64,000 nucleotides of DNA from Synergistota bacterium (lineage in GTDB: Bacteria > Synergistota > GBS-1). The translations under genes were made by a program, and so were the position numbers. How positions within the stretch are numbered: the stretch's first letter is position 1; each line of letters starts with the position of its first letter. The notes beneath the pieces are model-generated. The model had not been told where the DNA came from and did no database searches. It saw only the letters and a program-made list of their open reading frames with translations. Shown here piece after piece: positions 1-62,213 of the stretch. The DNA lies in contig JAGHDO010000033.1 in the NCBI GenBank assembly GCA_021159885.1, positions 7,370 through 71,369 on the forward strand. The letters run 5' to 3'.

Positions 1-1687
<1,687 letters not shown>

Positions 1688-5268: not shown

Positions 5269-5673
5269 TTACCCCCTCTCACAGATTTCAAGCAAAACTC
5301 CGCCTGTAGCCTTCGGATGAAGAAAAGCTATGCGGGCTCCTCCTGCCCCCTTCCTGGGCTTTTCATCTATCAGTCTTATCCCCTTTCCTTTAAGTTCCTC
5401 TAAAGCTTCCTCTATATTCTCTACCCTTAGAGCTATGTGGTGAAGACCCTCTCCTCGCTTTTCAATGAACTTAGCTACCGGACCATCTGGAGCCGTAGAT
5501 TCAAGAAGCTCAATCTCCGTATCCCCAACGGGGAGAAAAGCAGTCTTAACCTTCTGATCAGGAACCTCTTCAACACCTTCACACTTAATTCCGAGAGTCT
5601 CCTCGTACAGCTTCAGTGCCTCCGAAATACTTTTAACCGCTATGCCTATGTGATCCACCTTTATAACCTTCAT
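5269..5673 (-). CDS. mce: Methylmalonyl-CoA epimerase (glyoxalase/VOC fold)
   Basis: 134 aa; [10 protein letters not shown]...HIALRV are VOC-family metal-binding motifs. Sits between meaB and mmdA. Confidence 0.8.
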
Positions 5674-6623
5674 TTTATCTGACCCCCCTTCACAACCTTT
5701 CCTATAATTTCACTAACAAGAGCATATGGGTCTATCTCCTTATTAAGGATCTGTTCCACGTACAAATCCAAGGTTTCTCCCCTCAACAATTTTTCCACTC
5801 GCTCTCTTATTTTTTCTTCAAGGGCTATCCTGAGCTCCGATTCAACACGCTTCTTCCTTCTTTTTAAGAGCTCTCCACTCTCGCGGAGATAGCGTACGTG
5901 ACTATCTATCTCCTCTACAAGCTTATCCACACCGGTTCCGTCCTCAGCTATGGTCATAATAACCGGTGGAATCCATTCAGACTCCCCATAACCGAATTCA
6001 AGCCAGACCTTTAGTTCCTTGGCAAGCCTATCAGCTCCATCTTTATCCGATTTGTTGACAACAAATATATCACCTATTTCCATTATGCCAGCTTTTATAA
6101 CCTGAATTTCATCTCCCATACCAGGAACGAGTACAAGTATAACGGTATCAGCGGTCTTAACTATATCTACCTCGTTTTGACCAGCTCCCACCGTCTCTAT
6201 GATAACGTAGTCGAATCCACAGGCATCAAGAACCTTAGCTACATCAGCGGTAGCTTTCGATAGCCCCCCTAAAGCCCCTCTTGAGCCCATACTCCTTATA
6301 AAAACACCCGGATCCGTGGCATGTCGCTGCATTCTAAGCCTATCCCCAAGAAAGGCTCCTCCAGTAAAGGGACTGGAAGGGTCTATAGCTATAACACCTG
6401 CTTTTTTGTTCTTTCTTCTTAAATGATATATTAGCTTATCAACGAGCGTGCTTTTTCCCACGCCCGGAGCGCCCGTTATACCCAAATAATAAGCCCTGCC
6501 GGTAAAAGGATAGAGCTCCCGCAGGAGCTCTATCCCTTCTTCTCCTCCGCCTTCAACTATTGTTATTATTCTGCCTATGGAAATATGATCTCCGGCAAGA
6601 GCCTTTCTAATTAGCTCTCTCAC
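5670..6623 (-). CDS. meaB: Methylmalonyl-CoA mutase-associated GTPase MeaB/ArgK
   Basis: [13 protein letters not shown]-loop, NKSD and DxxG motifs; G3E family. Adjacent to the mutase genes. Confidence 0.85.
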
Positions 6624-7018
6624 TTCCTAACAGCCTGCCTTAAAAATTCTACCATTCTTGATATGGGCGTTCCGGGACCAAACACTTCCGCTACTCCTAT
6701 CTCCTTAAGAGCAGGAACATCCTCAGGGGGAATAACCCCACCCGCCACTACTAAGATGTTTTCCGCTCCTTTTTCCTTAAGAAGCTCTATCACCCTTCTA
6801 CAATAATACTCATGAGCCCCAGAAAGAATACTTAACCCTATAGCATCTACATCCTCCTGAATCGCAGTTTGAACTATTTGCTCTGGAGTTTGCCTCAACC
6901 CTGTATAAATTACCTCCATACCCGCATCTCTAAGTCCCCGAGCCACTACCTTTGCTCCCCGATCGTGCCCGTCAAGCCCCGGCTTAGCTATCAAAACTCT
7001 TATCTTTTTATCGATCAT
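6620..7018 (-). CDS. mcmB: Methylmalonyl-CoA mutase small subunit, B12-binding domain
   Basis: 132 aa; the DxHxxG cobalamin motif is present (GLDGHDRG) within a Rossmann-like B12-binding domain. Confidence 0.85.
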
Positions 7019-7041
7019 CTTTATTCTCCCTCCCCGAAAGC

Positions 7042-8727
7042 TTAAAGGACTATCTTCTCCACATAAACGCCGAAAACATCCCTTAAAACGTCACAGATTT
7101 CTCCCTCGGTAGCGTAAGCCTTCACGGCTTCTAAGAAGTAGGGCATAAGATTCACGCTTTCATCTTGAGCGGCTTTTCTCAAATCCTCAAGAACGCTCTT
7201 AACTCTGATATTGTCTCTTCTTTGCTTAAGCTCGTGCAGTCTCTTAACCTGCTTTTCCGCTATCGAGGGATCAACCTTAAGGAGCTTAAGCCCGCTTAAA
7301 TCCTCATCTATCTGGAACTTATTAACCCCAACGACTATCTTCTCACCCTTCTCAACCTCTACCTGATATCTATACGCGCTATCCTGAATCTCCTTTTGCA
7401 CAAATCCCTTTTCTATTGCCTCTACCATACCACCGAGCTCATCTATCTTCTCAATCAGCTTCATGGCTTCTTTCTCTATTTTGGTGGTCAGCCACTCTAT
7501 ATAATAAGAACCTGCCAATGGATCAACCGTATTTGTTACCCCACTTTCATAGGCTATTATCTGCTGGGTTCTTAGAGCTATGCGAACAGATTCCTCCGTG
7601 GGAAGAGCAAGAGCCTCATCATAGGAATTAGTGTGAAGAGATTGCGTACCGCCAAGCACCGCCGCAAGAGCCTGAATAGTAACCCTTATTATGTTATTTA
7701 ATGGCTGCTGAGCGGTTAAAGTAGACCCTCCCGTTTGAGTATGGAATCTAAGCATCATAGCCCGAGGATTCGTAACTCCAAAACGCTCCTTCATTATCTT
7801 AGCCCAGAGTCTCCTCGCAGCTCTAAATTTCGCTATCTCCTCAAGAAAATCATTATGAGCGTTGAAGAAGAAAGATAATCTCTGACCAAATACGTTAGGA
7901 TCCAGTCCCTTCTTCATCGCAGCCTCGACATAAGCTATACCATCTGCAAGCGTAAAGGCTACCTCCTGAACCGCAGTAGCCCCCGCTTCCCTTATGTGAT
8001 AACCGCTTATACTTATAGTATTCCATTTAGGCACGTGTTTACTACCAAACTCAAAAATATCGGTTATAAGTCTCATAGAAGGCTTGGGAGGGAATATATA
8101 AGTTCCTCTCGCTATATATTCCTTAAGGATATCATTCTGTATAGTACCCCTTAGCTTATCAAACGATACACCTTGCTTCTCAGCAACCGCCATGTACATA
8201 GCCCACAAAATTGCAGCCGGTGCGTTTATGGTCATAGAGGTACTAACCTTATCAAGAGGAATCCCATCGAAAAGTATCTCCATATCCTCAAGAGAGTCTA
8301 TTGCAACCCCCACTTTCCCAACTTCTCCTTGAGCAAGCGGATGATCAGAGTCATAACCTATCTGGGTCGGCAAATCGAAAGCAACACTTAAACCCGTCTG
8401 CCCCTGTTCTAACAGATACTTATACCTCTTGTTAGATTCTTCCGCAGTTGCAAAACCGGCGTATTGCCTCATCGTCCAGAATCTGCCTCTGTACATCGTT
8501 GGCTGAACGCCACGAGTAAATGGGTAATCGCCAGGAAATCCAAGATCCTCAACATAATCCATCTCGCTTATATCCTCAGGAGTGTAAACGCGCTCAACGG
8601 GGATATTAGACCCCGTTTTAAACTCCTCTCTCATCTCAGGCCTCTTAGCAAGGGTCTTATCAAGCACCTTCTCCTTCCATTCCGCCTTTTTCTTCTTTAT
8701 CTTCTCTATCGCTTCCTCCTTAAACAA
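7042..8727 (-). CDS. mcmA: Methylmalonyl-CoA mutase large (catalytic TIM-barrel) subunit, split-type without a B12 domain
   Basis: 561 aa; [59 protein letters not shown] is the canonical MCM N-domain. TTG start with a GGGGG RBS. Confidence 0.9.
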
Positions 8728-51669: not shown

Positions 51670-52411
51670 TTTTCCTTAAAAACCTTACAGCTTCCTCCTT
51701 AGTCGCTATATAGCCTCTAAGCTGAGCCTCATACACAAGACTCTTGAGTTTTCCAACTCTTTTGCCAGGAGGAATACGAAGAATCCTCATTATATCATCA
51801 CCACTTAAGAGAGGAGGAGGTTTTTCCTCCTCCTCTCTTAGTTTCTTTTTAATCAAAAGTAGCTTCTTCCTATTATCGAGAAAGGTCTCGGAATAACCAC
51901 AGCTTCCTTTTAAATCCACCTCGGTTAATGAAATTAAATCATCGAGGTAAGGATAAGTTCTTACAAGCTTACGTAGGGTCCTCTCGCTTAGGGGATGATG
52001 GAACTTCATGTGATTTATAACGAGAGAAATCACCTTCCTAACCACGAGACGAATCAGTGGAAACCTGAAGAAAAACCTTCGAGCTATTTTAGCGCTCTCC
52101 CGTTCATGAAAATGATATGTAAGATCTTCTCTTAAAACCGCTTTGCCGACATCATGCAGGAAAGAAGCAAGAATGATCGAAAAGCTATATCCTCCTCTTT
52201 CAGCAACATCAACACAGCGAAGCGTGTGAATCCAAGCATTGCCCTCTGGATGGTAAAATGGATCCTGCTGAGTTTTCTCAAGCTCATCTAATTCAGCACC
52301 GTAAAGTGAAAGCAATCCCTTTATCTTACAGTCTTTCAAAAAGAGAGCTAACCTTCTCTTCCTCAATGCTTTTATAAAAAGCCTTCTCCTAAGAGACCTT
52401 ATTCTCCTCAA
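51659..52411 (-). CDS. HD-domain phosphohydrolase resembling the C-terminal (HD plus tail) half of bacterial CCA-adding enzyme, lacking the nucleotidyltransferase head
   Basis: HTLRCVD...LHDVGK HD motif. C-terminal LSGDDIMRILRIPPGKRVGKLKSLVYEAQLRGYIATKEEAVRFL is typical of CCA-enzyme tails. Confidence 0.65.
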   Translation of the reverse strand: MRRIRSLRRRLFIKALRKRRLALFLKDCKIKGLLSLYGAELDELEKTQQDPFYHPEGNAWIHTLRCVDVAERGGYSFSIILASFLHDVGKAVLREDLTYHFHERESAKIARRFFFRFPLIRLVVRKVISLVINHMKFHHPLSERTLRKLVRTYPYLDDLISLTEVDLKGSCGYSETFLDNRKKLLLIKKKLREEEEKPPPLLSGDDIMRILRIPPGKRVGKLKSLVYEAQLRGYIATKEEAVRFLRKITE

Positions 52412-53234
52412 TTATCTTCTCCAGAAAGCTTGCAACGCCCTCATTCTCATTAGAGGGAATAACAAGATCAGCGCTTTCTTTGACTACATCAGGTGCGTTT
52501 TCCATCGCTACTCCAAGTCCGGCTGAAATTATAGCATCAAGATCGTTAAGATTATCCCCAACGAATATAATCTGATCAAGAGATATCCTATAAAATCGCG
52601 AGAAAAACTCAAGTGATTCTCTTTTGGAGCATCCAGGACCATAAACCTCAAGGAACGCCTCTCCTTTATAAACGGAGTTCATGATAAAGCTCAAACCATC
52701 GCTCCCAAAGGTCTTAATAAACTTTCTAACTTTCTCAAGCTCTCCAACCACTACAAGCTCATTAAAGGAGTGCCATTTCTCAAGAGCGTGAAATATATCT
52801 TTGAGTAAAACGGCGTTCTTTACAGCCTTTTCAAAATAAAAACTGAAAACCGATTCGCGTGGATAATTCCCCTCCATAAAGATGTAAGGGACGCTAAAGG
52901 AAGGGACAAACAAGATCGGAAATAGATCAAGATTCTTAGCAGTTTCCAGCATCGCCCTAAGCTTCTTTAGCGGGAAAATCACAAGCCTGTGAATTTCCCT
53001 CGGGTTAATGGATAATATCAAAGCTCCATTTTGAGTAGAGGCAGGTCCCTCAATTTCAAGGAGCTCTAAATAAGGCTTCGCCGAGGGAAAGGATCTCCCC
53101 GTTGATATCGTGATCTTTAACCCTGCCTTTCGAACATCATCTATGGACCTAAGCACCCGTGGTGTGAGTATCTTATCTGATGTTAAAAGAGTCCCATCGA
53201 GATCGAAAACTATAAGCTTATACTTTCCCTTCAT
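52389..53234 (-). CDS. HAD-superfamily hydrolase, Cof subfamily (IIB)
   Basis: LIVFDLDGTLL motif I, SGR motif II, GDNLNDLD motif IV. Confidence 0.8.
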   Translation of the reverse strand: MKGKYKLIVFDLDGTLLTSDKILTPRVLRSIDDVRKAGLKITISTGRSFPSAKPYLELLEIEGPASTQNGALILSINPREIHRLVIFPLKKLRAMLETAKNLDLFPILFVPSFSVPYIFMEGNYPRESVFSFYFEKAVKNAVLLKDIFHALEKWHSFNELVVVGELEKVRKFIKTFGSDGLSFIMNSVYKGEAFLEVYGPGCSKRESLEFFSRFYRISLDQIIFVGDNLNDLDAIISAGLGVAMENAPDVVKESADLVIPSNENEGVASFLEKIIEENKVS

Positions 53235-53530
53235 TCAAGCCTCCCAGCTTCCCAAAAGAAAACCTCAAGCCCCTCTTTTCTCACCTCTTCTCTCTCCCTC
53301 ATTTTTCTCAAAGCCTCTAAAAGCCGCTCCGCTTTCTCATCCTCCGCGATAACGAAAAATGCCTCGTTTAAGGAAGGCCATATTGGAGTCCCCAGATGAG
53401 GACCACTTCCACCAACACCTTTCACTCCGCTCCACTGAGTATAGCCATCTGTATCGGCACCCTCCAAAACTGCCTTTATATCCTCCTCAAGCACTGAATT
53501 CCCCACTATAAGAATAGCTTTCACACTCAT
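53231..53530 (-). CDS. Small PII-like (GlnB/CutA-fold) protein of unknown function
   Basis: 99 aa. A beta-alpha-beta pattern aligns by eye to GlnB: VKAILIV..EEDIKAVLEGADTDGYTQWSGVKGVG..EAFFVIAEDE..LEVFFWEAGR. Confidence 0.4.
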   Translation of the reverse strand: MSVKAILIVGNSVLEEDIKAVLEGADTDGYTQWSGVKGVGGSGPHLGTPIWPSLNEAFFVIAEDEKAERLLEALRKMREREEVRKEGLEVFFWEAGRLE

Positions 53531-53581: not shown

Positions 53582-55054
53582 TTGAAAAAAGCGTTGATAG
53601 TAACCTTAATAATTATAGCATTTTTTTCACCCACAGCTTGTTTATACGCAAAGCCAATAACATGGGATCGCTTTACCACGGATTTACTTGTTATATCCAA
53701 GCTTCACCTCGATCTCCCTTTAACGAAATCAGCGTTGAAGGGAGCCAGAAATTATCCTATATCGAGAGCAGAAGCTATTTATCTGCTTGTAGGATCATTA
53801 GGGTTAAATTTCGAGGCAAATCTTCTTAAGAACATTTTTTCCATCCCTCAGATTAAAAAATGCCCGTATTTCCTTAGAGGAGCGATTAATCTTGCAATGT
53901 TTTCCAAACCCCCAATAATTAATAAGAAGCTGGTGAATCTCAAATGGCTCAAAGGAAGCTTAAGCGAAAGCGAGGCTAAAACGCTCATTAGGAGAGCCCT
54001 TTTTCTTAGGAAAAACGGCTTAAAGATAGAATGGACAGAAAAAATAAGCAAAGATCTCGTGCTTCACTGGGAAAGAAAGCTGGATCCTCCCTTGTACATT
54101 TGCTATCTCAAGCTAAATCTGAGATCTAAAAATCTTAAGCTGATTCCCGAACTCGCTGGAACACACATTCAGGATAAAGAAAAGCTAAGCGAAATGTGCA
54201 AAAGAAAGAAAGCTATCGCTGGAATTAACGGCGGATTTTTCGCTCCGGATGGAGATCCAATAGGAGCTCTCATGATAGACGGAGTACTTATAAGTGAACC
54301 TTTCCCGCACCGTGGATGCTTTGGCTGGAACGATCACGGAGAGTTCGTATTCGGAATGGTAGATTGGGAAGGAGAGTTAAGAAGCAACTCGGGTATCGTT
54401 GTACCTATAGATGGATTAAACAGAAAACCAATAGGAAACGAGGTTATACTCTATACCCCATTTTACGGTGAAAAGGTCGATCTCAAGAAAGGTGGCGTTG
54501 AAGTTGTGGTGAGAAATTGGGAGGTCAGCCTGGTAAGAGAAAGCGGGGAACATTACATCCCGAGGGATGGTTTTATAATAGCTGGATATGGAGAAAAGGG
54601 AGGGCTTTTATCCCGTCTAAGAAAGGGAGAAAGGATAGAAATACATGCTTATCTAATGCCAACCGAGAAAAAAACCATCTGGAGAAGAATAACTTATCTT
54701 ATTCAAGGCGGTCCCACTTTGATAAAAAACTACAAAATCGTTAACTACGATGAAAACTTCAAAGAAAGTTTCCTTGAGAAAAAGCACCCCCGCACGATAA
54801 TAGGTGAAACTCGCAATGGCGATCTCATTCTTATGATAGTTGATGGCAGAAATGCTTATCATAGTGAAGGTTTAACCATCCACGAGCTCAAGGAACTTTT
54901 AGCAAGCATGAAGATTAAAAATGCCCTTAATCTCGATGGGGGAGGTTCAACATGTATATGTTTTAACAACCAGCTATACAATCTTCCTTCCGACTCGGGA
55001 AAGGAAAGAAAGATAAGCTACGGTTTACTCATCCTCCCGAAGAATGAGCGCTAA
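53582..55054 (+). CDS. Secreted phosphodiester glycosidase family protein (DUF2233/NAGPA-like) with an N-terminal domain of unknown function
   Basis: Signal peptide. GINGGFFAPDGDPIGALMIDGVLISEPF and NALNLDGGGS are characteristic of the family. Upstream -10 TATAAT. Confidence 0.65.
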   Translation: MKKALIVTLIIIAFFSPTACLYAKPITWDRFTTDLLVISKLHLDLPLTKSALKGARNYPISRAEAIYLLVGSLGLNFEANLLKNIFSIPQIKKCPYFLRGAINLAMFSKPPIINKKLVNLKWLKGSLSESEAKTLIRRALFLRKNGLKIEWTEKISKDLVLHWERKLDPPLYICYLKLNLRSKNLKLIPELAGTHIQDKEKLSEMCKRKKAIAGINGGFFAPDGDPIGALMIDGVLISEPFPHRGCFGWNDHGEFVFGMVDWEGELRSNSGIVVPIDGLNRKPIGNEVILYTPFYGEKVDLKKGGVEVVVRNWEVSLVRESGEHYIPRDGFIIAGYGEKGGLLSRLRKGERIEIHAYLMPTEKKTIWRRITYLIQGGPTLIKNYKIVNYDENFKESFLEKKHPRTIIGETRNGDLILMIVDGRNAYHSEGLTIHELKELLASMKIKNALNLDGGGSTCICFNNQLYNLPSDSGKERKISYGLLILPKNER

Positions 55055-56015
55055 CATCTTGAAGATACTCCTCCAATAGTTTTTTAGTTAGCTTTTTGCA
55101 CTCTGCTACCTCCATTATTATCTCTTGAGAAGTGATCTCAACATTAACAAGCTCATCTTCAAGAACTCTCTGGGCCCTCTTCTTTATAAACTCAAGCTTC
55201 TTATCGAGAGTAAAGATGACCTTTAATATCTCGCCCTTAAGCTCCTTTAATCTCTTCTCCCCGTTTTTCTCGCTCCTCTCGATCCTTAGCACCTTTAAAG
55301 CTACATCCTCTATCTGTTTCATGGTAAACGGCTTTATTATGTAATCGCCTGCTCCCTTTTTCTTCGCCTTCTTAGCCACGACTTCATCATCTACTACGGT
55401 GACCATTATGACATGAGTTTCTTCACGCTCCGTTTTTATTTTTTCTAAAACCTCAAGCCCATTTATCCCGGGTAAAAGATAATCAAGAAAAACGAGATCA
55501 TATCCTTTTTCCTTGAAAAGCTCCATTCCTCGCTCGCCATCCTCCGCTGTCTCAACCTGTCTAAAGCCTATTTTCCTAAGCGTATCTTCAAGAACCTGCC
55601 TCTGAAGTGGATCATCCTCGATAACTAAAATCTTAGTATCAAGCTTTATTATGAGGGAGCTTAAAGAATCCTTAAGCGTGCGAGCTAAGATATCCGCTCG
55701 GGTCTTAACTACATAATCGTCCAACCCCTCCTCAAGAAGCTTCATTACCTCATCCTCATCCTTTTCAGTAGAAGTAAGCATTATTACACCTATACGCTTG
55801 TCCCTTTCCCTGATTCTCTTAAGCTCCTGAACGCCATCTATATCCTCAAGGACATAGTTCAGAATCACGATATCATACTTACCCTCCTCGAGTTTCTCCT
55901 CAAGCTCCTTTCTCGAGGAGACAATATCGATGTCCTCAAATCCCTCCTTTTTTAGAATATCTCTACATATCTCTTGAACGAGATGGCTTTTCTCAACGAG
56001 AAGAACCTTTTTCAT
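55029..56015 (-). CDS. Dual-receiver response regulator with no output domain: REC1 is degenerate (phospho-Asp replaced by Asn; acidic pocket E-K) and REC2 is canonical; followed by a C-terminal coiled-coil tail
   Basis: REC1 has ...YDIVILNYVLEDIDG... REC2 has ...ILVIEDD...YDLVFLDYLLPGINGLEVL...GDYIIKPF. ATG overlaps the galT stop (ATGA). Confidence 0.8.
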   Translation of the reverse strand: MKKVLLVEKSHLVQEICRDILKKEGFEDIDIVSSRKELEEKLEEGKYDIVILNYVLEDIDGVQELKRIRERDKRIGVIMLTSTEKDEDEVMKLLEEGLDDYVVKTRADILARTLKDSLSSLIIKLDTKILVIEDDPLQRQVLEDTLRKIGFRQVETAEDGERGMELFKEKGYDLVFLDYLLPGINGLEVLEKIKTEREETHVIMVTVVDDEVVAKKAKKKGAGDYIIKPFTMKQIEDVALKVLRIERSEKNGEKRLKELKGEILKVIFTLDKKLEFIKKRAQRVLEDELVNVEITSQEIIMEVAECKKLTKKLLEEYLQDVSAHSSGG

Positions 56016-57073
56016 CGCAACATCCCCTCCACAGCGTTATCTACCTCCCTGAGGTATTTAGCGGCTTCCTCGGGAGAAGTGGGATTTATGTAAAACCCAG
56101 TTCCCCACTCAAAGCCAGCCATTATAGTTAAACGGGGGACAAGCTCTATATGCCAGTGAAAATCCTCTCTTATAGTTCCCCAATAGTCGGGCTTACCCAG
56201 ACGGGGATGAAGCGAGGGAGCGGTGTGAATAACGAGATTATAAGGCGGATCATTCAAAGCCAGTTTAATCCTTAATAGCATGTCTTTAACAGCAAGAGCA
56301 AGATCTGGAAGTTCCTCATCGGGAATTTCAGCAAAGTCATAGCTATGTTTGATGGGGTAAAGCCTACACTCAAATGGAAAGCATGAAGCAAAAGGCGTAA
56401 ATAGAACGTAATTCTTACGAACCTTTACTATCCTTTCTCCAAATCTCATCTCATCTCGAAGGATATCACAGAAAATACAGCGTTCCTTTCTGGAAAAGTG
56501 CGCACGCGCAACGCTCAACTCCTCCTTCACTACCTTAGGAGTAATAGGCGTAGCTATTATCTGGCTATGCGGATGAGAAAGTGAAGCACCCGCTATGCTC
56601 CTATAGTTCCTGAAAATTAAAACATATCGAAATCTCTCATCGGCTCTTAGCGCTCTTAACCTAAGTTTATACACGCTTAAAACCTTTACTATCTGTTCCA
56701 ACGGGAGATCTCCCAAGCCCTTACCATGCTCCGGAGACTCTATAATGACCTCATGTGCTCCCACACCGCTCATACGATCATATAACCCAATGCCCTCTCT
56801 CTCTATCTTACCCTCAAGCTTAAGAGCAGGATATTTATTGGGTATAACCCTAACGCTCCACCCGGGTTTATTGGGCTCCGTACCTTCCTCGCGAATGGCA
56901 AAGATCTCCGGGGGAGTTTTATCCTCATTCCCAGGGCAGAAGGGACATTCCCCTTCTTCCTTCTTTTCCTCAGAGAGAACCGAAAAATCATGCGGTCGCT
57001 TTGCCCTCTCAGTGGATATAATAACCCACGTGCCCTTTAACGGATCATGCCTGAGCTCCGGCAAATTAACCAC
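56012..57073 (-). CDS. galT: Galactose-1-phosphate uridylyltransferase-family (HIT-like) nucleotidyltransferase
   Basis: CPFCPGNE zinc motif and SHPHSQI (HxHxQ) active site. Confidence 0.75.
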   Translation of the reverse strand: MVNLPELRHDPLKGTWVIISTERAKRPHDFSVLSEEKKEEGECPFCPGNEDKTPPEIFAIREEGTEPNKPGWSVRVIPNKYPALKLEGKIEREGIGLYDRMSGVGAHEVIIESPEHGKGLGDLPLEQIVKVLSVYKLRLRALRADERFRYVLIFRNYRSIAGASLSHPHSQIIATPITPKVVKEELSVARAHFSRKERCIFCDILRDEMRFGERIVKVRKNYVLFTPFASCFPFECRLYPIKHSYDFAEIPDEELPDLALAVKDMLLRIKLALNDPPYNLVIHTAPSLHPRLGKPDYWGTIREDFHWHIELVPRLTIMAGFEWGTGFYINPTSPEEAAKYLREVDNAVEGMLR

Positions 57074-57152
57074 CCCTTTTAAAATATTAACATATATGCT
57101 ATCATCAGAAAAGCCTTATCACCAAAAAGAAAATACAAAGGGGAGAAAAAAA

Positions 57153-58871
57153 ATGAAAGGTGCAAGAGTACTTTTAGAGATGCTAAAAAGATATGATGTA
57201 AAACACATTTTTGGTCTACCGGGTGAGACAACGATACCTCTGTATGTTGAATGGAGTAAATTCCCTGAGATAAAGCATGTTCTCACGAGAGATGAAAGAA
57301 GCGCATCCTTTATGGCAGATGCTTATGCCAAAGTAAGCCTTAAGCCAGGAATATGCGAATCTCCAAGCGTTGGAGCTACACATGTAGTTCCAGGAATAGC
57401 TGAAGCTTATAAATCATCCGTGCCGCTAATAGTATTCACGACCGATGTACCCCTGCATCTCGAGAAGAAAAACATGCTAACGGGCTTTGAGCAAACTCCT
57501 CTTTTCACCTCCATAACCAAGGAAAGCTTAACTATATTAAAAGCATCAGAAATTCCATTTATTCTAAGACGAGCATTCAGAATGGCAACGACTGGCAGGC
57601 CGGGACCCGTGCATATAAGGGTTCCACAGAACGTGCTGGAAGAAGAGATAACATCAGCAGATCTGAGAGTTCAAAAGGAGTTTTCAAAGTATCCTGGGCA
57701 TCGCCCAATAGCGGATAAAGGGGAAATTAAGAAGGCCGTTAAGCTATTGCTTAAAAGCGAAAAACCATTAATTATATGCGGTCAGGGAGTCTTATACTCC
57801 CAAGCTTGGGAGGAAATAAAGGAGCTCGCGGAGCTCCTTGCAATACCTGTGGGAACTACCATTTCAGGAAAGGGAAGCTTCCCTGAAAGACATCCCCTAT
57901 CAATAGGTGTGATAGGAATCAGAGGAGGCACTATCGTATCAAATAAAGTGGTAGAAGAATCGGATCTCATCTTCTATGTCGGATGCAATACCGATTACGT
58001 CACAACAGATGGATGGAAACTACCATCAGCAGATTCTGATAAGGCGATAATTCACCTGGATATAAGCGAAGCAGAGGTCTCCAATAACTATATCACAACA
58101 TCCGTTCTTATCGGAGATGCCAAAGCAACACTGAAAGAAATGATAAAAGTAATTAAGGATGAAATATCTCAACAAATAGATTTCCTAAATTCACCAAGGA
58201 TAAAGGCTTTAAATAAGAGCCTCAATGAATATAGAGAAGCACTGAGAGAAGGAAAAAGTCATTCCAAGATGTGTCCATTAGAAGTTATAGAAACGCTAAA
58301 TGAACTTCTCTCAGAAAGGGAATACATATTAGCAATAGATCCTGGTATAAGCGCCATCTACACATCCGCATTTTTTAAAGCGGATAAACCTGGTAGAAGA
58401 TTTCTCTTCAATTTCTCCCTTGGAGCCTTAGGATATGCCATACCAGCATCTATAGGAGCACATTATGCAAACCCAGAAATTCCAATAATAGCACTAACCG
58501 GGGATGGAAGCTTTGGTTTTACAGCCGGAGAGCTTGAAACCATAGCGAGAACCGAGGGAAATATAAAAATAATCCTGTTTAACAACGATAGTTTCGGCTG
58601 GATAAGGGCAACGATAAAGCTCCTCCAAAATGCCTCTCCCTTTGCCACCGACTTTAAAAAGGTAGATCACGCAAAAGTAGCTGAGGGTTTTGGTTTAAGA
58701 TCGTATAAAATCGAGAAAATCAACGATTTAAGAATACTACTTAAAGAAGAACTCACAAGAAATAGCCCAAGTTTCATAGAGCTTAATGTTGATCCTGAAG
58801 ACGAGCTTATTCCACCGGTTCCCTCATGGTTAAAAATAGCCAAAGAGAAGAAACTGGCACACATAGGATAA
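57153..58871 (+). CDS. Thiamine-pyrophosphate-dependent enzyme, acetolactate-synthase large-subunit family. The track ORF from 56745 is an artefactual 5' extension.
   Basis: Starts MKGARVLLEMLKRYDVKHIFGLPGETTIPL after an AAAGGGGAG RBS. TPP-binding GDG...NN motif present (LTGDGSFGF...LFNNDSFGW). Confidence 0.8.
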   Translation: MKGARVLLEMLKRYDVKHIFGLPGETTIPLYVEWSKFPEIKHVLTRDERSASFMADAYAKVSLKPGICESPSVGATHVVPGIAEAYKSSVPLIVFTTDVPLHLEKKNMLTGFEQTPLFTSITKESLTILKASEIPFILRRAFRMATTGRPGPVHIRVPQNVLEEEITSADLRVQKEFSKYPGHRPIADKGEIKKAVKLLLKSEKPLIICGQGVLYSQAWEEIKELAELLAIPVGTTISGKGSFPERHPLSIGVIGIRGGTIVSNKVVEESDLIFYVGCNTDYVTTDGWKLPSADSDKAIIHLDISEAEVSNNYITTSVLIGDAKATLKEMIKVIKDEISQQIDFLNSPRIKALNKSLNEYREALREGKSHSKMCPLEVIETLNELLSEREYILAIDPGISAIYTSAFFKADKPGRRFLFNFSLGALGYAIPASIGAHYANPEIPIIALTGDGSFGFTAGELETIARTEGNIKIILFNNDSFGWIRATIKLLQNASPFATDFKKVDHAKVAEGFGLRSYKIEKINDLRILLKEELTRNSPSFIELNVDPEDELIPPVPSWLKIAKEKKLAHIG

Positions 58872-60026: not shown

Positions 60027-60505
60027 GTAAAAGCAGAAAAATTGCACTCTTTTCAATTTATAGCGCGCTTGTGTGCGTTGCAACATTCATACACGTTCCA
60101 GTTCCAGGATTTAGGATCTACTTTAACCTCGGTGAGGGAGCGATATATACCATAGCCATCCTTTTTGGCGCCTTTGCAGGGGGAATAGCTGGTGGGCTGG
60201 GATCGGCATTAGCAGATCTTCTTTTAGGTTATCCTCTTTGGGCACCGTTTACCCTTATAATCAAGGGGACCGAGGGATTCATCGTTGGAAAGCTGGCACG
60301 CCATAATAAACCTCTTGCCTTAACCATTGGTGCGGCTATAATGATAAGCGGATACGCTATCTCCGCAGGTCTCCTTTACGGATGGGGAGCTGCTCCCGTG
60401 GAAGCGATTACCGATATAACCCAATGCTCGGTTGGGGTTCTCATAGCTGTCCCGCTGGTCAGAGTGCTCCAAAAGAGCGTTATTGAAAAGGTCGAGAAAA
60501 GTTAA
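60023..60505 (+). CDS. Small polytopic membrane protein, ECF-transporter S-component-like (ThiW/QueT-like)
   Basis: 160 aa, ~5 TM helices, Gly-rich helix GGIAGGLGSALADLLLG; translationally coupled to the MFS gene. Confidence 0.4.
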   Translation: MSKSRKIALFSIYSALVCVATFIHVPVPGFRIYFNLGEGAIYTIAILFGAFAGGIAGGLGSALADLLLGYPLWAPFTLIIKGTEGFIVGKLARHNKPLALTIGAAIMISGYAISAGLLYGWGAAPVEAITDITQCSVGVLIAVPLVRVLQKSVIEKVEKS

Positions 60506-62213
60506 GATTCATCTATTAAAACCCCAACAACCTTATGCCCATCAAGATAAGCGGAGAATATTCCCTCATATATCCGGAGAGAGGGATGTTCTCCGCGCTT
60601 ATATTCATGCGAATCAAACCAGGTTCTGTTAAAGATGTTTCCCTCCATACCCACAAATATAGGTAAATATAGTATTCCATCGAGCTCAAGATCAGCAAAA
60701 AAGTGCGTACCATATGAAAGCTCAGGCGTAAAACCCTTTTCCATCACCCCTATCTCAACTATCATGCCACAGTTTGATACCTCGCTGTATTCGACAGGGA
60801 CTCCTTGCCGGGGGTTGGAAGTCCCCCACCTCCCTGGACCTATGAGAATAAACTTCTCACCCTCAAGAGCTTTATTTATCCTCCCTATTTCACGCGCTAC
60901 CTTATGTGGATCGAATTTTTCCACGTACATCCAGGGATCGACGTAAACCAAGTAGCGAACTTTTTCTACCACACCATTAGTCAGCATTCTATTTCCCCGA
61001 AGTATAAGCCTCTCCTCAGGTATATTTTTAGGCACCGTGACCGGCCTATGGGATTCATAGCTCGAAAGAGGACGAAGCTGAACCAGCGCAAAAAAGCTTT
61101 CTACGGGCTCAGATGCAAACTCAACATCAACGGGGATACCCATTTCTTTCTCAAAGAGCTTGAAGAGAAAGCCCATAAGCTCGAAAAACTCCGGATGAGT
61201 GCTTGGGAAACCGTCAAAAGTGAAAATTATCTTGCCCTCCTTATGGGACGAATAGGGTGTTATCATATCCTCCGAATAAATGCTTGCAAGCCTGCTAAAA
61301 TTTCTATGATACTTTATCAAATCCTTCCTCGAGTTTATATTATAGGATTTAAATCCTCCACCCTCGAGATCAAGTAAATCAAAGGTCTCCTGAGAATATC
61401 TCATTATTTCAGTTGGATCATTTCCCTCAGGCCTCAAGCTTAGGTTAGTCAGAGAAAATATACGAGCGTAATTTCTACCCGTACATCTCGTACCTAACCC
61501 AAAGACGACCCTAACCATCCCATCTTCAACCCTAATCCTTTCTGTCCACCTGCGATAATTTCTCGAAAATCCCACTCCAGCTATCTCTGGATAGAACTCA
61601 CCTCCCCGTCTCTTTCCAATCAGCTGTTGAACTATTATCCCCATGCTCTCCCCTTCTAAGGAGTGCTTCTTCCTATATTCGAGAGCTACAGGACCATATG
61701 TGCTTGCGTAAACTTTCTTTATAGCACAGAGAAGCTCCCTTACTCTCTCTTCAAGGTCTCCCCTATTAGACACGAAGAGCGTCAGATATTTTCCCGCAAA
61801 GGAGTACTTTATACTATCCTCAAGAAGCGAGGAAGATCTAACCGCGAGAGGATAATCCATCTCGCAAAGCCATCTTCTCAAATCTTCTATCACTGCTTCA
61901 GGAAAAGAAGCATTTAAAAAGCCTTCTTTATATCCTCCCAGTTACCCGTGAAAATAACATCAGCAAGATCGTTTCCTTCCATAAATTCGTCGAAGATCTC
62001 CGTCGTTATAAACCGGCTCGGAGGTATATAAATGGGCCATGGAGGGATCCCCTCCATCCCCTCAAGAACTCTCTTAGCGAAAATAAGTCCCTTAGCCTTA
62101 CCTCCAACGCTTCCCTCGCCTATCAGATGACTCTTATCCTTAACGAGCTCCTTTGCATTTAAGGATAGATACCTTCGTAGCTTGATATTGCTTAGCAAAC
62201 TATCCCCCCTCAA
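60502..62213 (-). CDS. PEP-utilising-enzyme nucleotide-binding (PPDK_N) domain protein lacking the phospho-His and PEP-binding domains; split into 61914..62213 and 60502..61893 by a frameshift near an A5 run (61916-61920)
   Basis: The upstream piece carries GGKAKGL (GGKGANL-like). The downstream piece carries [26 protein letters not shown] (the VAVRSSATAEDLP..SFAGQ motif). One extra base in the T/A run reads ...[17 protein letters not shown]... continuously. Confidence 0.7.

What the first reader, a model, noticed from the sequence alone, without database searches (positions are those of the whole stretch)
55029..57073. GalT-family nucleotidyltransferase co-transcribed with an output-less dual-receiver response regulator whose first REC is a pseudo-receiver
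galT (CPFCPGNE and HPHSQ motifs) overlaps the start of the 328-aa regulator by 4 nt (ATGA).
- The regulator has two receiver domains. REC1 has Asn in place of the phospho-acceptor Asp and an E-K pair instead of the acidic pocket, making it a pseudo-receiver. REC2 is fully canonical.
- A ~70-aa coiled-coil-like tail follows, and there is no DNA-binding or enzymatic output domain.

Coupling a sugar-nucleotide transferase (possibly a nucleotide-sugar phosphorylase rather than a Leloir GalT) to a phospho-relay or connector protein is unusual. No cognate kinase is in the window.
Basis: partly seen in the sequence, partly recalled or inferred. Interest (0 to 1): 0.5.

Follow-up and report, generated by a model that had tools for sequence, protein, structure and literature searches.

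The report
GalT-like enzyme with output-less dual-receiver regulator
A two-gene operon pairs a sugar-nucleotide enzyme, most similar to plant ADP-glucose phosphorylase, with a signalling protein that has one dead receiver domain, one live one and a unique helical tail; related enzymes elsewhere sit in glycogen gene clusters that often carry their own receiver proteins, so the pairing fits a wider undescribed pattern.

Summary
galT (56012..57073, minus strand) and a 328-aa response regulator (55029..56015, minus strand) overlap by ATGA. REC1 has E8-K9/N53 where CheY has D12-D13/D57; REC2 is canonical (D178). No output domain is detectable.

New findings:
- The enzyme matches Arabidopsis ADP-glucose phosphorylase (228 bits) far better than E. 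coli GalT (88 bits). In 61 of 80 orthologue loci it lies within 6 kb of glycogen genes.
- Receiver genes recur near this clade in three unrelated forms. The widespread one belongs to a kinase–receiver–GlgC/NTP-transferase module.
- The dual-receiver protein occurs only in this lineage: the window plus two sister genomes, with the same synteny and dN/dS of 0.10. Its 83-aa tail has no homologue among 1.84 billion representative proteins.
- The window holds no kinase, Hpt, galK, galE or glycogen gene.

Most likely (inferred, about 0.4), an orphan kinase phosphorylates REC2, and the regulator then acts by protein contact on the co-translated enzyme at the ADP-glucose node.

I rate it a new variant of known kinds, of moderate interest.

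The parts
56012..57073 (-). galT-like HIT-family nucleotidyltransferase/phosphorylase gene. 353 aa from GTG at 57073; more likely 350 aa from TTG at 57064.
   Evidence: ORF. Pfam GalP_UDP_transf and NCBIfam TIGR00209 above cut-off. Best PDB hit 1Z84 At5g18200 ADP-glucose phosphorylase, E 1.6e-66. CPFCPGNE at residues 43-50, HPHSQ at 167-171. dN/dS 0.06 against sister genome L086.
57073..57078 (-). AAGGGG Shine-Dalgarno sequence, 6 nt upstream of the TTG at 57064. It overlaps the GTG at 57073.
   Evidence: Read from the sequence. The upstream region is identical in L086.
56012..56015 (-). ATGA stop/start overlap between galT and the regulator (translational coupling).
   Evidence: Sequence. The same 4-nt overlap occurs in L081, L086 and L087.
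55029..56015 (-). 328-aa response regulator: REC1 (pseudo-receiver), REC2 (canonical), helical hairpin tail.
   Evidence: Pfam Response_reg x2, 1.6e-49. AlphaFold2 model, pLDDT 87. dN/dS 0.10.
55641..56015 (-). REC1, residues 1-125. Pseudo-receiver with E8-K9, N53, T81, K104.
   Evidence: Alignment to CheY and other receivers. All 19 nearest dual-receiver homologues have Asp at this site. Only 2 amino-acid changes against the sister genome, dN/dS 0.04.
55281..55640 (-). REC2, residues 126-245. Canonical receiver with D134-D135 (preceded by E133), D178, T206, K228.
   Evidence: dN/dS 0.10.
55029..55280 (-). Tail, residues 246-328 plus the stop codon. It continues REC2 helix alpha5 (helix 232-286), turns, and forms helix 292-325. 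No His in either helix.
   Evidence: AlphaFold2 secondary structure, pLDDT 54-81 across tail residues 241-328. No homologue in 1.84e9 representatives apart from itself. No Pfam hit. dN/dS 0.13. The only tail His is H324.
55007..55038 (-). Terminator-like hairpin at the end of the operon. It lies inside the 26-nt convergent overlap with the NAGPA gene (53582..55054, plus strand).
   Evidence: Consensus scan, which is weak evidence: 4 sites found against 2.7 expected.

Best explanation
This is a two-gene, translationally coupled operon.

Gene 1 encodes a class-I GalT/HIT enzyme from the clade nearest to Arabidopsis At5g18200 ADP-glucose phosphorylase. In most other bacteria this clade sits in glycogen (alpha-glucan) clusters with GlgA, GH57 enzymes, and GlgC or an NTP-transferase/PGM fusion. 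Its likely job is to interconvert an NDP-glucose, probably ADP-glucose, and glucose-1-phosphate through a covalent nucleotidyl-His169 intermediate.

Gene 2 encodes an output-less regulator. An unlinked (orphan) histidine kinase would phosphorylate D178 of REC2. REC1 cannot be phosphorylated and serves as a fixed adaptor or interaction domain, as in a PleD-like REC-REC pair with the order reversed. The extended alpha5 helix and hairpin act as a dimerisation stalk whose packing changes on phosphorylation.

The output would be protein-protein contact, most probably with the co-translated GalT-like dimer. That would place the ADP-glucose/glucose-1-P node under two-component control.

Shown: the gene structures, the residues, the fold prediction, purifying selection, the context of orthologues, and the recurrence of receivers. 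Inferred: the substrate, the phosphorylation, the dimerisation and the regulator's target.
For: - Coupling and conservation: the ATGA overlap and synteny are kept in two sister genomes. All three parts of the regulator are under purifying selection, with omega 0.04, 0.10 and 0.13.
- Enzyme clade: At5g18200 scores 228 bits, P. aerophilum GalT 144 and E. coli GalT 88. (bioRxiv 10.64898/2026.09.13.751320) identifies At5g18200 as ADP-glucose phosphorylase.
- Glycogen context: 61 of 80 orthologue loci carry glycogen genes within 6 kb, including GlgA in 37 and GH57 in 33. The closest non-sister relative sits in a GH57-GH57-GalT-GH57 branching enzyme-GlgA operon.
- No galK or galE in the window.
- Receivers recur beside this node in three unrelated sequence types.
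  - Nitrospirota: receiver to galT with a TGATG overlap and no kinase nearby.
  - Type A: kinase-receiver-GlgC/NTP-PGM clusters that often include galT.
  - The window's dual receiver.
- No DNA-binding or enzymatic domain in the regulator.
- Structure: the REC-REC pair superposes on 3LUF/3MF4 and PleD, and REC2 plus the long alpha5 helix resembles the DgcR, WspR and DctD stalks.
Against: - No experiment or complex prediction links the regulator to the enzyme.
- No GalT-receiver fusion protein appeared among the top 120 hits of a chimeric GalT+REC2 query.
- Immediate receiver-galT adjacency occurs in only about 7 of 80 loci, and 5 of those are one Nitrospirota group. Adjacency alone is therefore not clearly above chance.
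- The widespread type-A receiver is tied more tightly to GlgC/NTP-PGM than to galT. galT is absent from roughly half of the long-flank loci.
- The window locus has no glycogen genes nearby, so the enzyme may have been recruited to another role.
- The protein passes the NCBIfam galT equivalog cut-off, so true GalT activity is not excluded.
- Tail pLDDT is only 54-81.
Confidence: 0.4

Rival explanations
1. The adjacency is incidental. The regulator is a stand-alone phosphorelay component, phosphate sink or connector for a pathway unrelated to the enzyme. It shares an operon with galT only because of a lineage-specific rearrangement.
For: The architecture is found only in this lineage. The best sequence homologue, P0002 (34% identity), sits in a pure signalling cluster. 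The next-closest GalT (69%) has no regulator. No fusion proteins were found. The window holds no glycogen genes and no kinase.
Against: The 4-nt overlap and synteny are conserved while dS reaches 0.3-0.8. Receivers were recruited independently beside the same enzyme clade or pathway in several phyla.
Confidence: 0.3
2. The enzyme is a genuine Leloir-pathway galactose-1-phosphate uridylyltransferase, and the regulator tunes galactose use.
For: TIGR00209 galT_1 scores above its cut-off (110.9 against 102.1), and the protein also matches PRK11720, though far below that model's cut-off (141.8 against 448 bits). The HPHxQ motif and CxxC zinc motif are present. Public records name the orthologues galactose-1-phosphate uridylyltransferase.
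Against: The window has no galK, galE or galM. None of the recurrent neighbour gene clusters annotated in the 80 orthologue loci is a galK or galE; the annotated ones are glycogen genes. Similarity to ADP-glucose phosphorylase is much higher than to characterised GalTs.
Confidence: 0.12
3. The regulator is a transcription factor, or otherwise nucleic-acid binding, and its orphan helical tail is an unrecognised DNA-binding or sigma/anti-sigma-contacting module that controls the operon or a regulon.
For: The tail is conserved under purifying selection (omega 0.13) and is rich in Lys, Arg and Glu. Many regulators autoregulate.
Against: No HTH or other DNA-binding family is detected at E<=0.01. 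The prediction is a simple two-helix hairpin continuous with REC alpha5, like the dimerisation stalks of DgcR, WspR and DctD. There are no homologues to support a domain family.
Confidence: 0.08

Closest known systems
Arabidopsis At5g18200 ADP-glucose phosphorylase (PDB 1Z84/2H39), a class-I GalT-type HIT enzyme
   Same: Best solved sequence relative: E 1.6e-66, aligned over residues 4-345. It shares the CxxC zinc motif, the HxHxQ nucleophile motif and a similar length. Orthologues of the window enzyme sit next to enzymes that use or make ADP-glucose.
   Different: The window protein has HPHSQ, as E. coli has HPHGQ (recalled from memory), whereas the plant enzyme has HSHSQ. Activity is untested. 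The plant enzyme is not known to have a receiver-domain partner.
E. coli, human and P. aerophilum GalT (Leloir UDP-glucose:hexose-1-P uridylyltransferase; 1HXP, 6GQD, 6K5Z)
   Same: Same superfamily and fold family, the same catalytic motif, and above the TIGR00209 cut-off.
   Different: Much weaker similarity (88, 74 and 144 bits against 228). No gal operon context; orthologues have glycogen context instead.
PleD-type tandem-receiver regulators (PleD 1W25/2V0N; REC-REC of 3LUF/3MF4)
   Different: The order is reversed: the pseudo-receiver comes first and the active receiver second. There is no GGDEF or other output domain, only an orphan helical hairpin.
Receiver-plus-coiled-coil stalk regulators (DgcR 6ZXC, WspR 3BRE, DctD 1L5Y, NtrC4 3DZD; FrzS pseudo-receiver + coiled coil)
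   Same: REC2 alpha5 runs on into a long helix, as in these proteins, where phosphorylation changes the packing of the coiled-coil dimer (the mechanism is from general knowledge of these families).
   Different: In those proteins the stalk leads to a catalytic or AAA+ domain. Here the protein ends after the hairpin.
Stand-alone receiver proteins in glycogen clusters of Geobacter, Aquificota, Poribacteria and others (type A), and the Nitrospirota receiver-galT pairs (type B), found here
   Same: Output-less receivers encoded beside the same enzyme clade or pathway. The Nitrospirota pair is also a translationally coupled two-gene module with no kinase nearby.
   Different: These are single-domain receivers with only 18-35% identity to either window receiver. 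Type A comes with a PAS-GAF kinase and sits directly upstream of GlgC or NTP-PGM. None has a pseudo-receiver or the tail.

Membership tests
Class-I GalT / HIT superfamily (Pfam PF01087+PF02744; NCBIfam TIGR00209) | Profile match above the curated cut-offs. | tested here: met
   PF01087 scores 63.1 against 22.1. TIGR00209 scores 110.9 against 102.1. PF02744 scores 29.0 against 29.2, marginally below.
Class-I GalT / HIT superfamily | HxHxQ motif with nucleophilic His, and a CxxC + His zinc site. | tested here: met
   HPHSQ at 167-171, CPFC at 43-46, H107 in GAHEVIIESPEH, aligned to the same motifs in 1Z84.
Leloir GalT (EC 2.7.7.12) | UDP-Glc + Gal-1-P exchange activity, and a gal operon context (galK/galE). 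| tested here: not met
   The context half was tested. The window has no galK or galE, and none of the annotated recurrent neighbour clusters in the 80 orthologue loci is one. Activity cannot be tested with these tools.
ADP-glucose phosphorylase (At5g18200-like) | Closest characterised relative is At5g18200 rather than a GalT. | tested here: met
   228 bits against 144 (P. aerophilum GalT), 88 (E. coli) and 74 (human).
ADP-glucose phosphorylase (At5g18200-like) | Phosphorolysis of ADP-glucose to Glc-1-P + ADP, with no GalT activity. | not testable with these tools
   Only indirect support: orthologues are clustered with GlgA, GlgC and GH57 genes.
Response regulator receiver (PF00072) | Receiver fold with acidic pocket, phospho-acceptor Asp, Thr/Ser and Lys. 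| tested here: met
   REC2 has D134-D135 (preceded by E133), D178, T206 and K228. AlphaFold2 pLDDT exceeds 90 over most of REC2.
Pseudo-receiver | Receiver fold that lacks the phospho-acceptor Asp and/or the acidic pocket. | tested here: met
   REC1 has E8, K9 and N53 in two independent alignments. N53 is conserved in the sister genomes. The fold is confident.
PleD-like diguanylate-cyclase regulators | REC-REC followed by a GGDEF domain. | tested here: not met
   REC-REC structural match but no GGDEF or any other Pfam domain after residue 245.
Hpt / DHp phosphotransfer helical bundle | A conserved phosphorylatable His on a helix of the bundle, and a HisKA or Hpt profile match. | tested here: not met
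   No His in helices 232-286 or 292-323; the only tail His is H324, near the C-terminus, and it is not conserved in the sister genomes. No HisKA or Hpt hit.
DNA-binding response regulators (OmpR, NarL, LytTR, NtrC) | A C-terminal DNA-binding domain. | tested here: not met
   NCBIfam hits cover only the receiver parts and all fall far below cut-off. There is no DNA-binding Pfam family.

The most novel reading that the evidence does not exclude
Output-less receiver proteins are direct protein regulators of the ADP-/NDP-glucose node of bacterial glycogen metabolism, meaning GlgC, the NTP-transferase/PGM fusions and the GalT-like ADP-glucose phosphorylase. On this reading the window's pseudo-receiver + receiver + hairpin protein is a lineage-specific version that binds the GalT-like enzyme, and storage-carbon flux in many uncultured phyla and in Geobacter is under an undescribed post-translational two-component control.
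Probability: 0.25. Interest if true: 0.6.

Novelty: new variant of a known kind. Interest (0 to 1): 0.4.

Why it matters
Control of bacterial glycogen synthesis is usually described as allosteric regulation of GlgC by metabolites plus transcriptional control. A recurrent genomic link between stand-alone receiver proteins, often with a cytoplasmic PAS-GAF kinase, and the enzymes that make or break ADP-glucose would add a signalling layer acting at the protein level. I did not find such a link described in six of my seven full-text literature searches that bore on it, or in a 2024 review of alpha-glucan enzymes.

The finding would also give a physiological role to the widespread bacterial 'GalT' proteins that are probably ADP-glucose phosphorylases and are currently annotated as Leloir enzymes.

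The window's protein is a compact case for asking what a pseudo-receiver fused to a live receiver does when there is no output domain.

If the pairing is incidental, this is simply one more orphan multi-receiver regulator.

Tried and rejected
- Search for orthologues of the regulator. Apart from its own cluster, the best hit among 5.8e9 proteins is 34% identical and lies in an unrelated signalling cluster. So there are no distant orthologues to compare.
- Full HMMER scan of 1.84e9 representatives with the 83-aa tail. It found only itself, so the tail cannot be assigned to a family.
- Rosetta-stone test with a chimeric GalT+REC2 query. No fused protein appeared among the top 120 hits; all were 341-362 aa with no PF00072.
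- Kinase, Hpt, galK, galE or glycogen genes in the window. None was found by phmmer with 6 kinases and the cluster representatives, by a HisKA+HATPase HMM whose positive control found 8 further kinases outside its seed cluster in the loci, or by Pfam on the window ORFs.
- Hpt/DHp reading of the tail. Rejected because no helix carries a His.
- Treating the galT-linked receivers as one orthologous family. Rejected because there are three sequence types.
- Treating the type-A receiver as GalT-specific. Rejected because a metagenome scan shows its constant neighbour is GlgC or NTP-PGM, with galT present in only about half of the long-flank loci.
- Literature searches for a described link between receivers, kinases and glycogen or GalT. 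Nothing relevant was found.
- The afdb50 fold library was unavailable.
- The promoter scan found no convincing minus-strand promoter upstream of galT in the 76-nt divergent intergenic region.
Full report
**The observation**

The minus strand carries two ORFs at the stated coordinates: 56012..57073 (353 aa) and 55029..56015 (328 aa). They overlap by ATGA, and a GGAGGGG ribosome-binding site lies inside the end of the first gene.

The first protein matches Pfam GalP_UDP_transf (5.9e-17). It falls just under the cut-off for the C-terminal GalT domain (29.0 against 29.2 bits). It passes NCBIfam TIGR00209 (110.9 against 102.1). CPFCPGNE is at residues 43-50 and HPHSQ at 167-171.

The likely start is the TTG at 57064 rather than the GTG at 57073. 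The AAGGGG Shine-Dalgarno sequence overlaps the GTG, and gene callers used the TTG in three independent assemblies.

The second protein has two Response_reg domains (1.6e-49) and nothing else. All of its NCBIfam hits are receiver-only and far below cut-off.

**The receiver domains**

In an alignment with CheY and eight other receivers, REC1 has E8, K9, N53, T81 and K104 where CheY has D12, D13, D57, T87 and K109. REC2 has D134-D135 (preceded by E133), D178, T206 and K228.

In a second alignment with the 19 nearest dual-receiver proteins, every one keeps Asp at the REC1 phospho-site. So the loss is derived and specific to this protein, and the pseudo-receiver call stands.

**Structure**

An AlphaFold2 model (mean pLDDT 87) shows two confident receiver folds. 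REC2 helix alpha5 continues as one long helix (232-286). After a short turn, a second helix (292-325) follows. Confidence over the tail is only 54-81.
- REC2 plus the long helix aligns with stalk-bearing regulators such as DgcR, WspR, DctD and NtrC4.
- The tail helices contain no His, which rules out an Hpt or DHp reading.

**How widespread the regulator is**

The exact protein is in NCBI as a response regulator of a Synergistota MAG. The next best hit among 5.8 billion proteins is 34% identical and sits in a signalling cluster with no galT.

The 83-aa tail has no homologue in a full HMMER scan of 1.84 billion representatives.

Two sister genomes, GCA_053994735.1 and GCA_053989855.1, carry the same arrangement: TPP enzyme <-> galT-regulator <- NAGPA. 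Their GalT is 91% identical and their regulator 94% identical. The same 4-nt overlap, E8-K9 and N53 are all kept.

Nei-Gojobori dN/dS values:
- Whole regulator: 0.10.
- REC1: 0.04.
- REC2: 0.10.
- Tail: 0.13.
- galT: 0.06.

All parts, including the pseudo-receiver and the orphan tail, are therefore maintained by selection.

**What the enzyme is**

Against solved structures:

| Protein | Score |
|---|---|
| Arabidopsis At5g18200 | 228 bits (E 1.6e-66) |
| P. aerophilum GalT | 144 bits |
| E. coli GalT | 88 bits |
| Human GALT | 74 bits |

At5g18200 is the characterised ADP-glucose phosphorylase (bioRxiv 10.64898/2026.09.13.751320, read).

A scan of GTDB species genomes returned 80 orthologue loci at 50-62% identity from many phyla. 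I called and clustered their genes and annotated representatives with Pfam. The recurrent neighbours are:
- GlgA (37 loci).
- GH57 enzymes (33 loci, plus 14 with a 4-alpha-glucanotransferase type and 10 with a branching-enzyme type).
- An NTP-transferase/phosphoglucomutase fusion (20 loci).
- GlgC (9 loci).
- GlgB (4 loci).

In all, 61 of 80 loci have at least one of these within 6 kb.

The closest non-sister relative (69% identity) lies in a GH57-GH57-GalT-GH57 branching enzyme-GlgA operon. None of the annotated recurrent neighbour clusters is a galK or galE, and the window has neither.

Activity remains untested.

**Is the link to two-component signalling unusual?**

It is not unusual for this clade. 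29 of 80 loci have a receiver gene and 17 have a kinase within 6 kb. The receivers fall into three unrelated sequence types.
- **Type B (Nitrospirota).** A 125-aa stand-alone receiver sits directly upstream of galT with a TGATG stop/start overlap. No kinase and no glycogen gene is nearby, so this two-gene module parallels the window's.
- **Type A.** This type carries the motif SAYxxYKDDFxxWxADAYVxKSSD and is 35-58% identical across Aquificota, Desulfuromonadota, Poribacteria and candidate phyla. It follows a PAS-GAF-HisKA-HATPase kinase inside glycogen clusters.
- **The window's dual receiver.**

I tested whether type A tracks galT itself by scanning metagenome contigs with a type-A alignment. 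Its constant partner is the gene immediately downstream, GlgC or the NTP-transferase/PGM fusion. galT is present in about half of the loci with long flanks.

So the general association is between output-less receivers and the NDP-glucose node of glycogen clusters. galT is a frequent member of that node but not an obligatory one. Direct receiver-galT adjacency (about 7 of 80 loci, 5 from one Nitrospirota group) is not in itself clearly above chance. No GalT-receiver fusion protein was found.

**Window context**

Pfam on the window's ORFs shows methylmalonyl-CoA genes, the dcw cluster, the fab cluster and transporters. It shows no HisKA, HATPase_c, Hpt, galK, galE or glycogen genes. Two HMM-based checks agree.

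The operon is bounded by a divergent acetolactate-synthase-like TPP enzyme, 76 nt away, and by a convergent NAGPA-family gene that overlaps the regulator's end by 26 nt.

**Most likely mechanism**

Confidence is about 0.4, and the steps below are inferred.
1. The enzyme interconverts ADP-glucose (or another NDP-glucose) and glucose-1-phosphate through a nucleotidyl-His169 intermediate.
2. An orphan kinase phosphorylates D178.
3. REC1 acts as a fixed adaptor, and the alpha5 stalk and hairpin mediate dimerisation.
4. The output is contact with a protein partner, most plausibly the co-translated enzyme.

The main rival (0.3) is that the pairing is incidental and the regulator serves another pathway. 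A true Leloir role (0.12) and a cryptic DNA-binding tail (0.08) are less likely.

**Novelty and interest**

Each part belongs to a known kind: a class-I GalT/ADP-glucose-phosphorylase enzyme, a tandem receiver with one pseudo-receiver, and a helical stalk. The combination is new and lineage-restricted: reversed REC order, no output domain, an orphan tail, and coupling to this enzyme.

I did not find the broader receiver-glycogen association described in the literature searches or in a 2024 review of alpha-glucan enzymes. The library is incomplete, so this is not proof of absence.

I rate the finding a new variant of a known kind, with interest 0.4.

Noticed in passing
L090-L151 (metagenome loci); also L001, L009, L012, L020, L023, L026, L030, L031, L055: A conserved module of a PAS-GAF-HisKA-HATPase kinase, a stand-alone 'type A' receiver (motif SAYxxYKDDFxxWxADAYVxKSSD), and GlgC or an NTP-transferase/phosphoglucomutase fusion. 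It occurs inside glycogen clusters of several phyla. I did not find it described in the literature searches.
   Followed up: partly
L038, L048, L056, L061, L068 around 5600-7030 (Nitrospirota): A stand-alone receiver gene overlaps the start of galT (TGATG). No kinase or glycogen gene lies within 6 kb. This is a second, independent two-gene receiver + GalT module.
   Followed up: partly
window 60502-62213 (minus strand): A PPDK_N-type (PEP-utilising/dikinase-like) gene is split into two reading frames (99 aa + 463 aa). The whole segment is absent from the sister contigs L086 and L087, where the ECF-S gene abuts the DUF711 gene. It is therefore an indel between close relatives and possibly a pseudogene.
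   Followed up: partly
window 56745-58871 (plus strand): The 708-aa ORF is an artefactual 5' extension of the TPP/acetolactate-synthase-like gene (real start about 57150), running antisense through galT. Similar long antisense ORFs lie opposite galT in several orthologue loci (my cluster c10).
   Followed up: partly
L037, L039, L042, L059, L074 around 6000-8000: Planctomycetota and Omnitrophota loci carry two tandem GalT-like paralogues (about 343 and 332 aa) in a conserved cluster that has no glycogen genes.
   Followed up: no
window 55029-57073 compared with L086 8001-10036: Synonymous divergence is uneven within the operon: dS is 0.82 in galT, 0.31 in the regulator and only 0.17 in REC1. 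Possible causes are recombination or extra constraint on the REC1 coding sequence.
   Followed up: no
window 530-1624 (minus strand): A single ORF fuses a ribose-5-phosphate isomerase B domain (LacAB_rpiB) to uracil phosphoribosyltransferase.
   Followed up: no
window 53231-53530 (minus strand) and 52389-53234 (minus strand): A PG0541-family P-II-like protein (NCBIfam NF045581) overlaps by 4 nt a Cof-type HAD-IIB sugar phosphatase gene. They lie just beyond the convergent NAGPA gene.
   Followed up: no
L024 3842-5914: In one Geobacter MAG, galT is preceded by a stand-alone receiver and a REC-REC-HisKA-HATPase hybrid kinase. This is another dual-receiver protein next to this enzyme clade.
   Followed up: no
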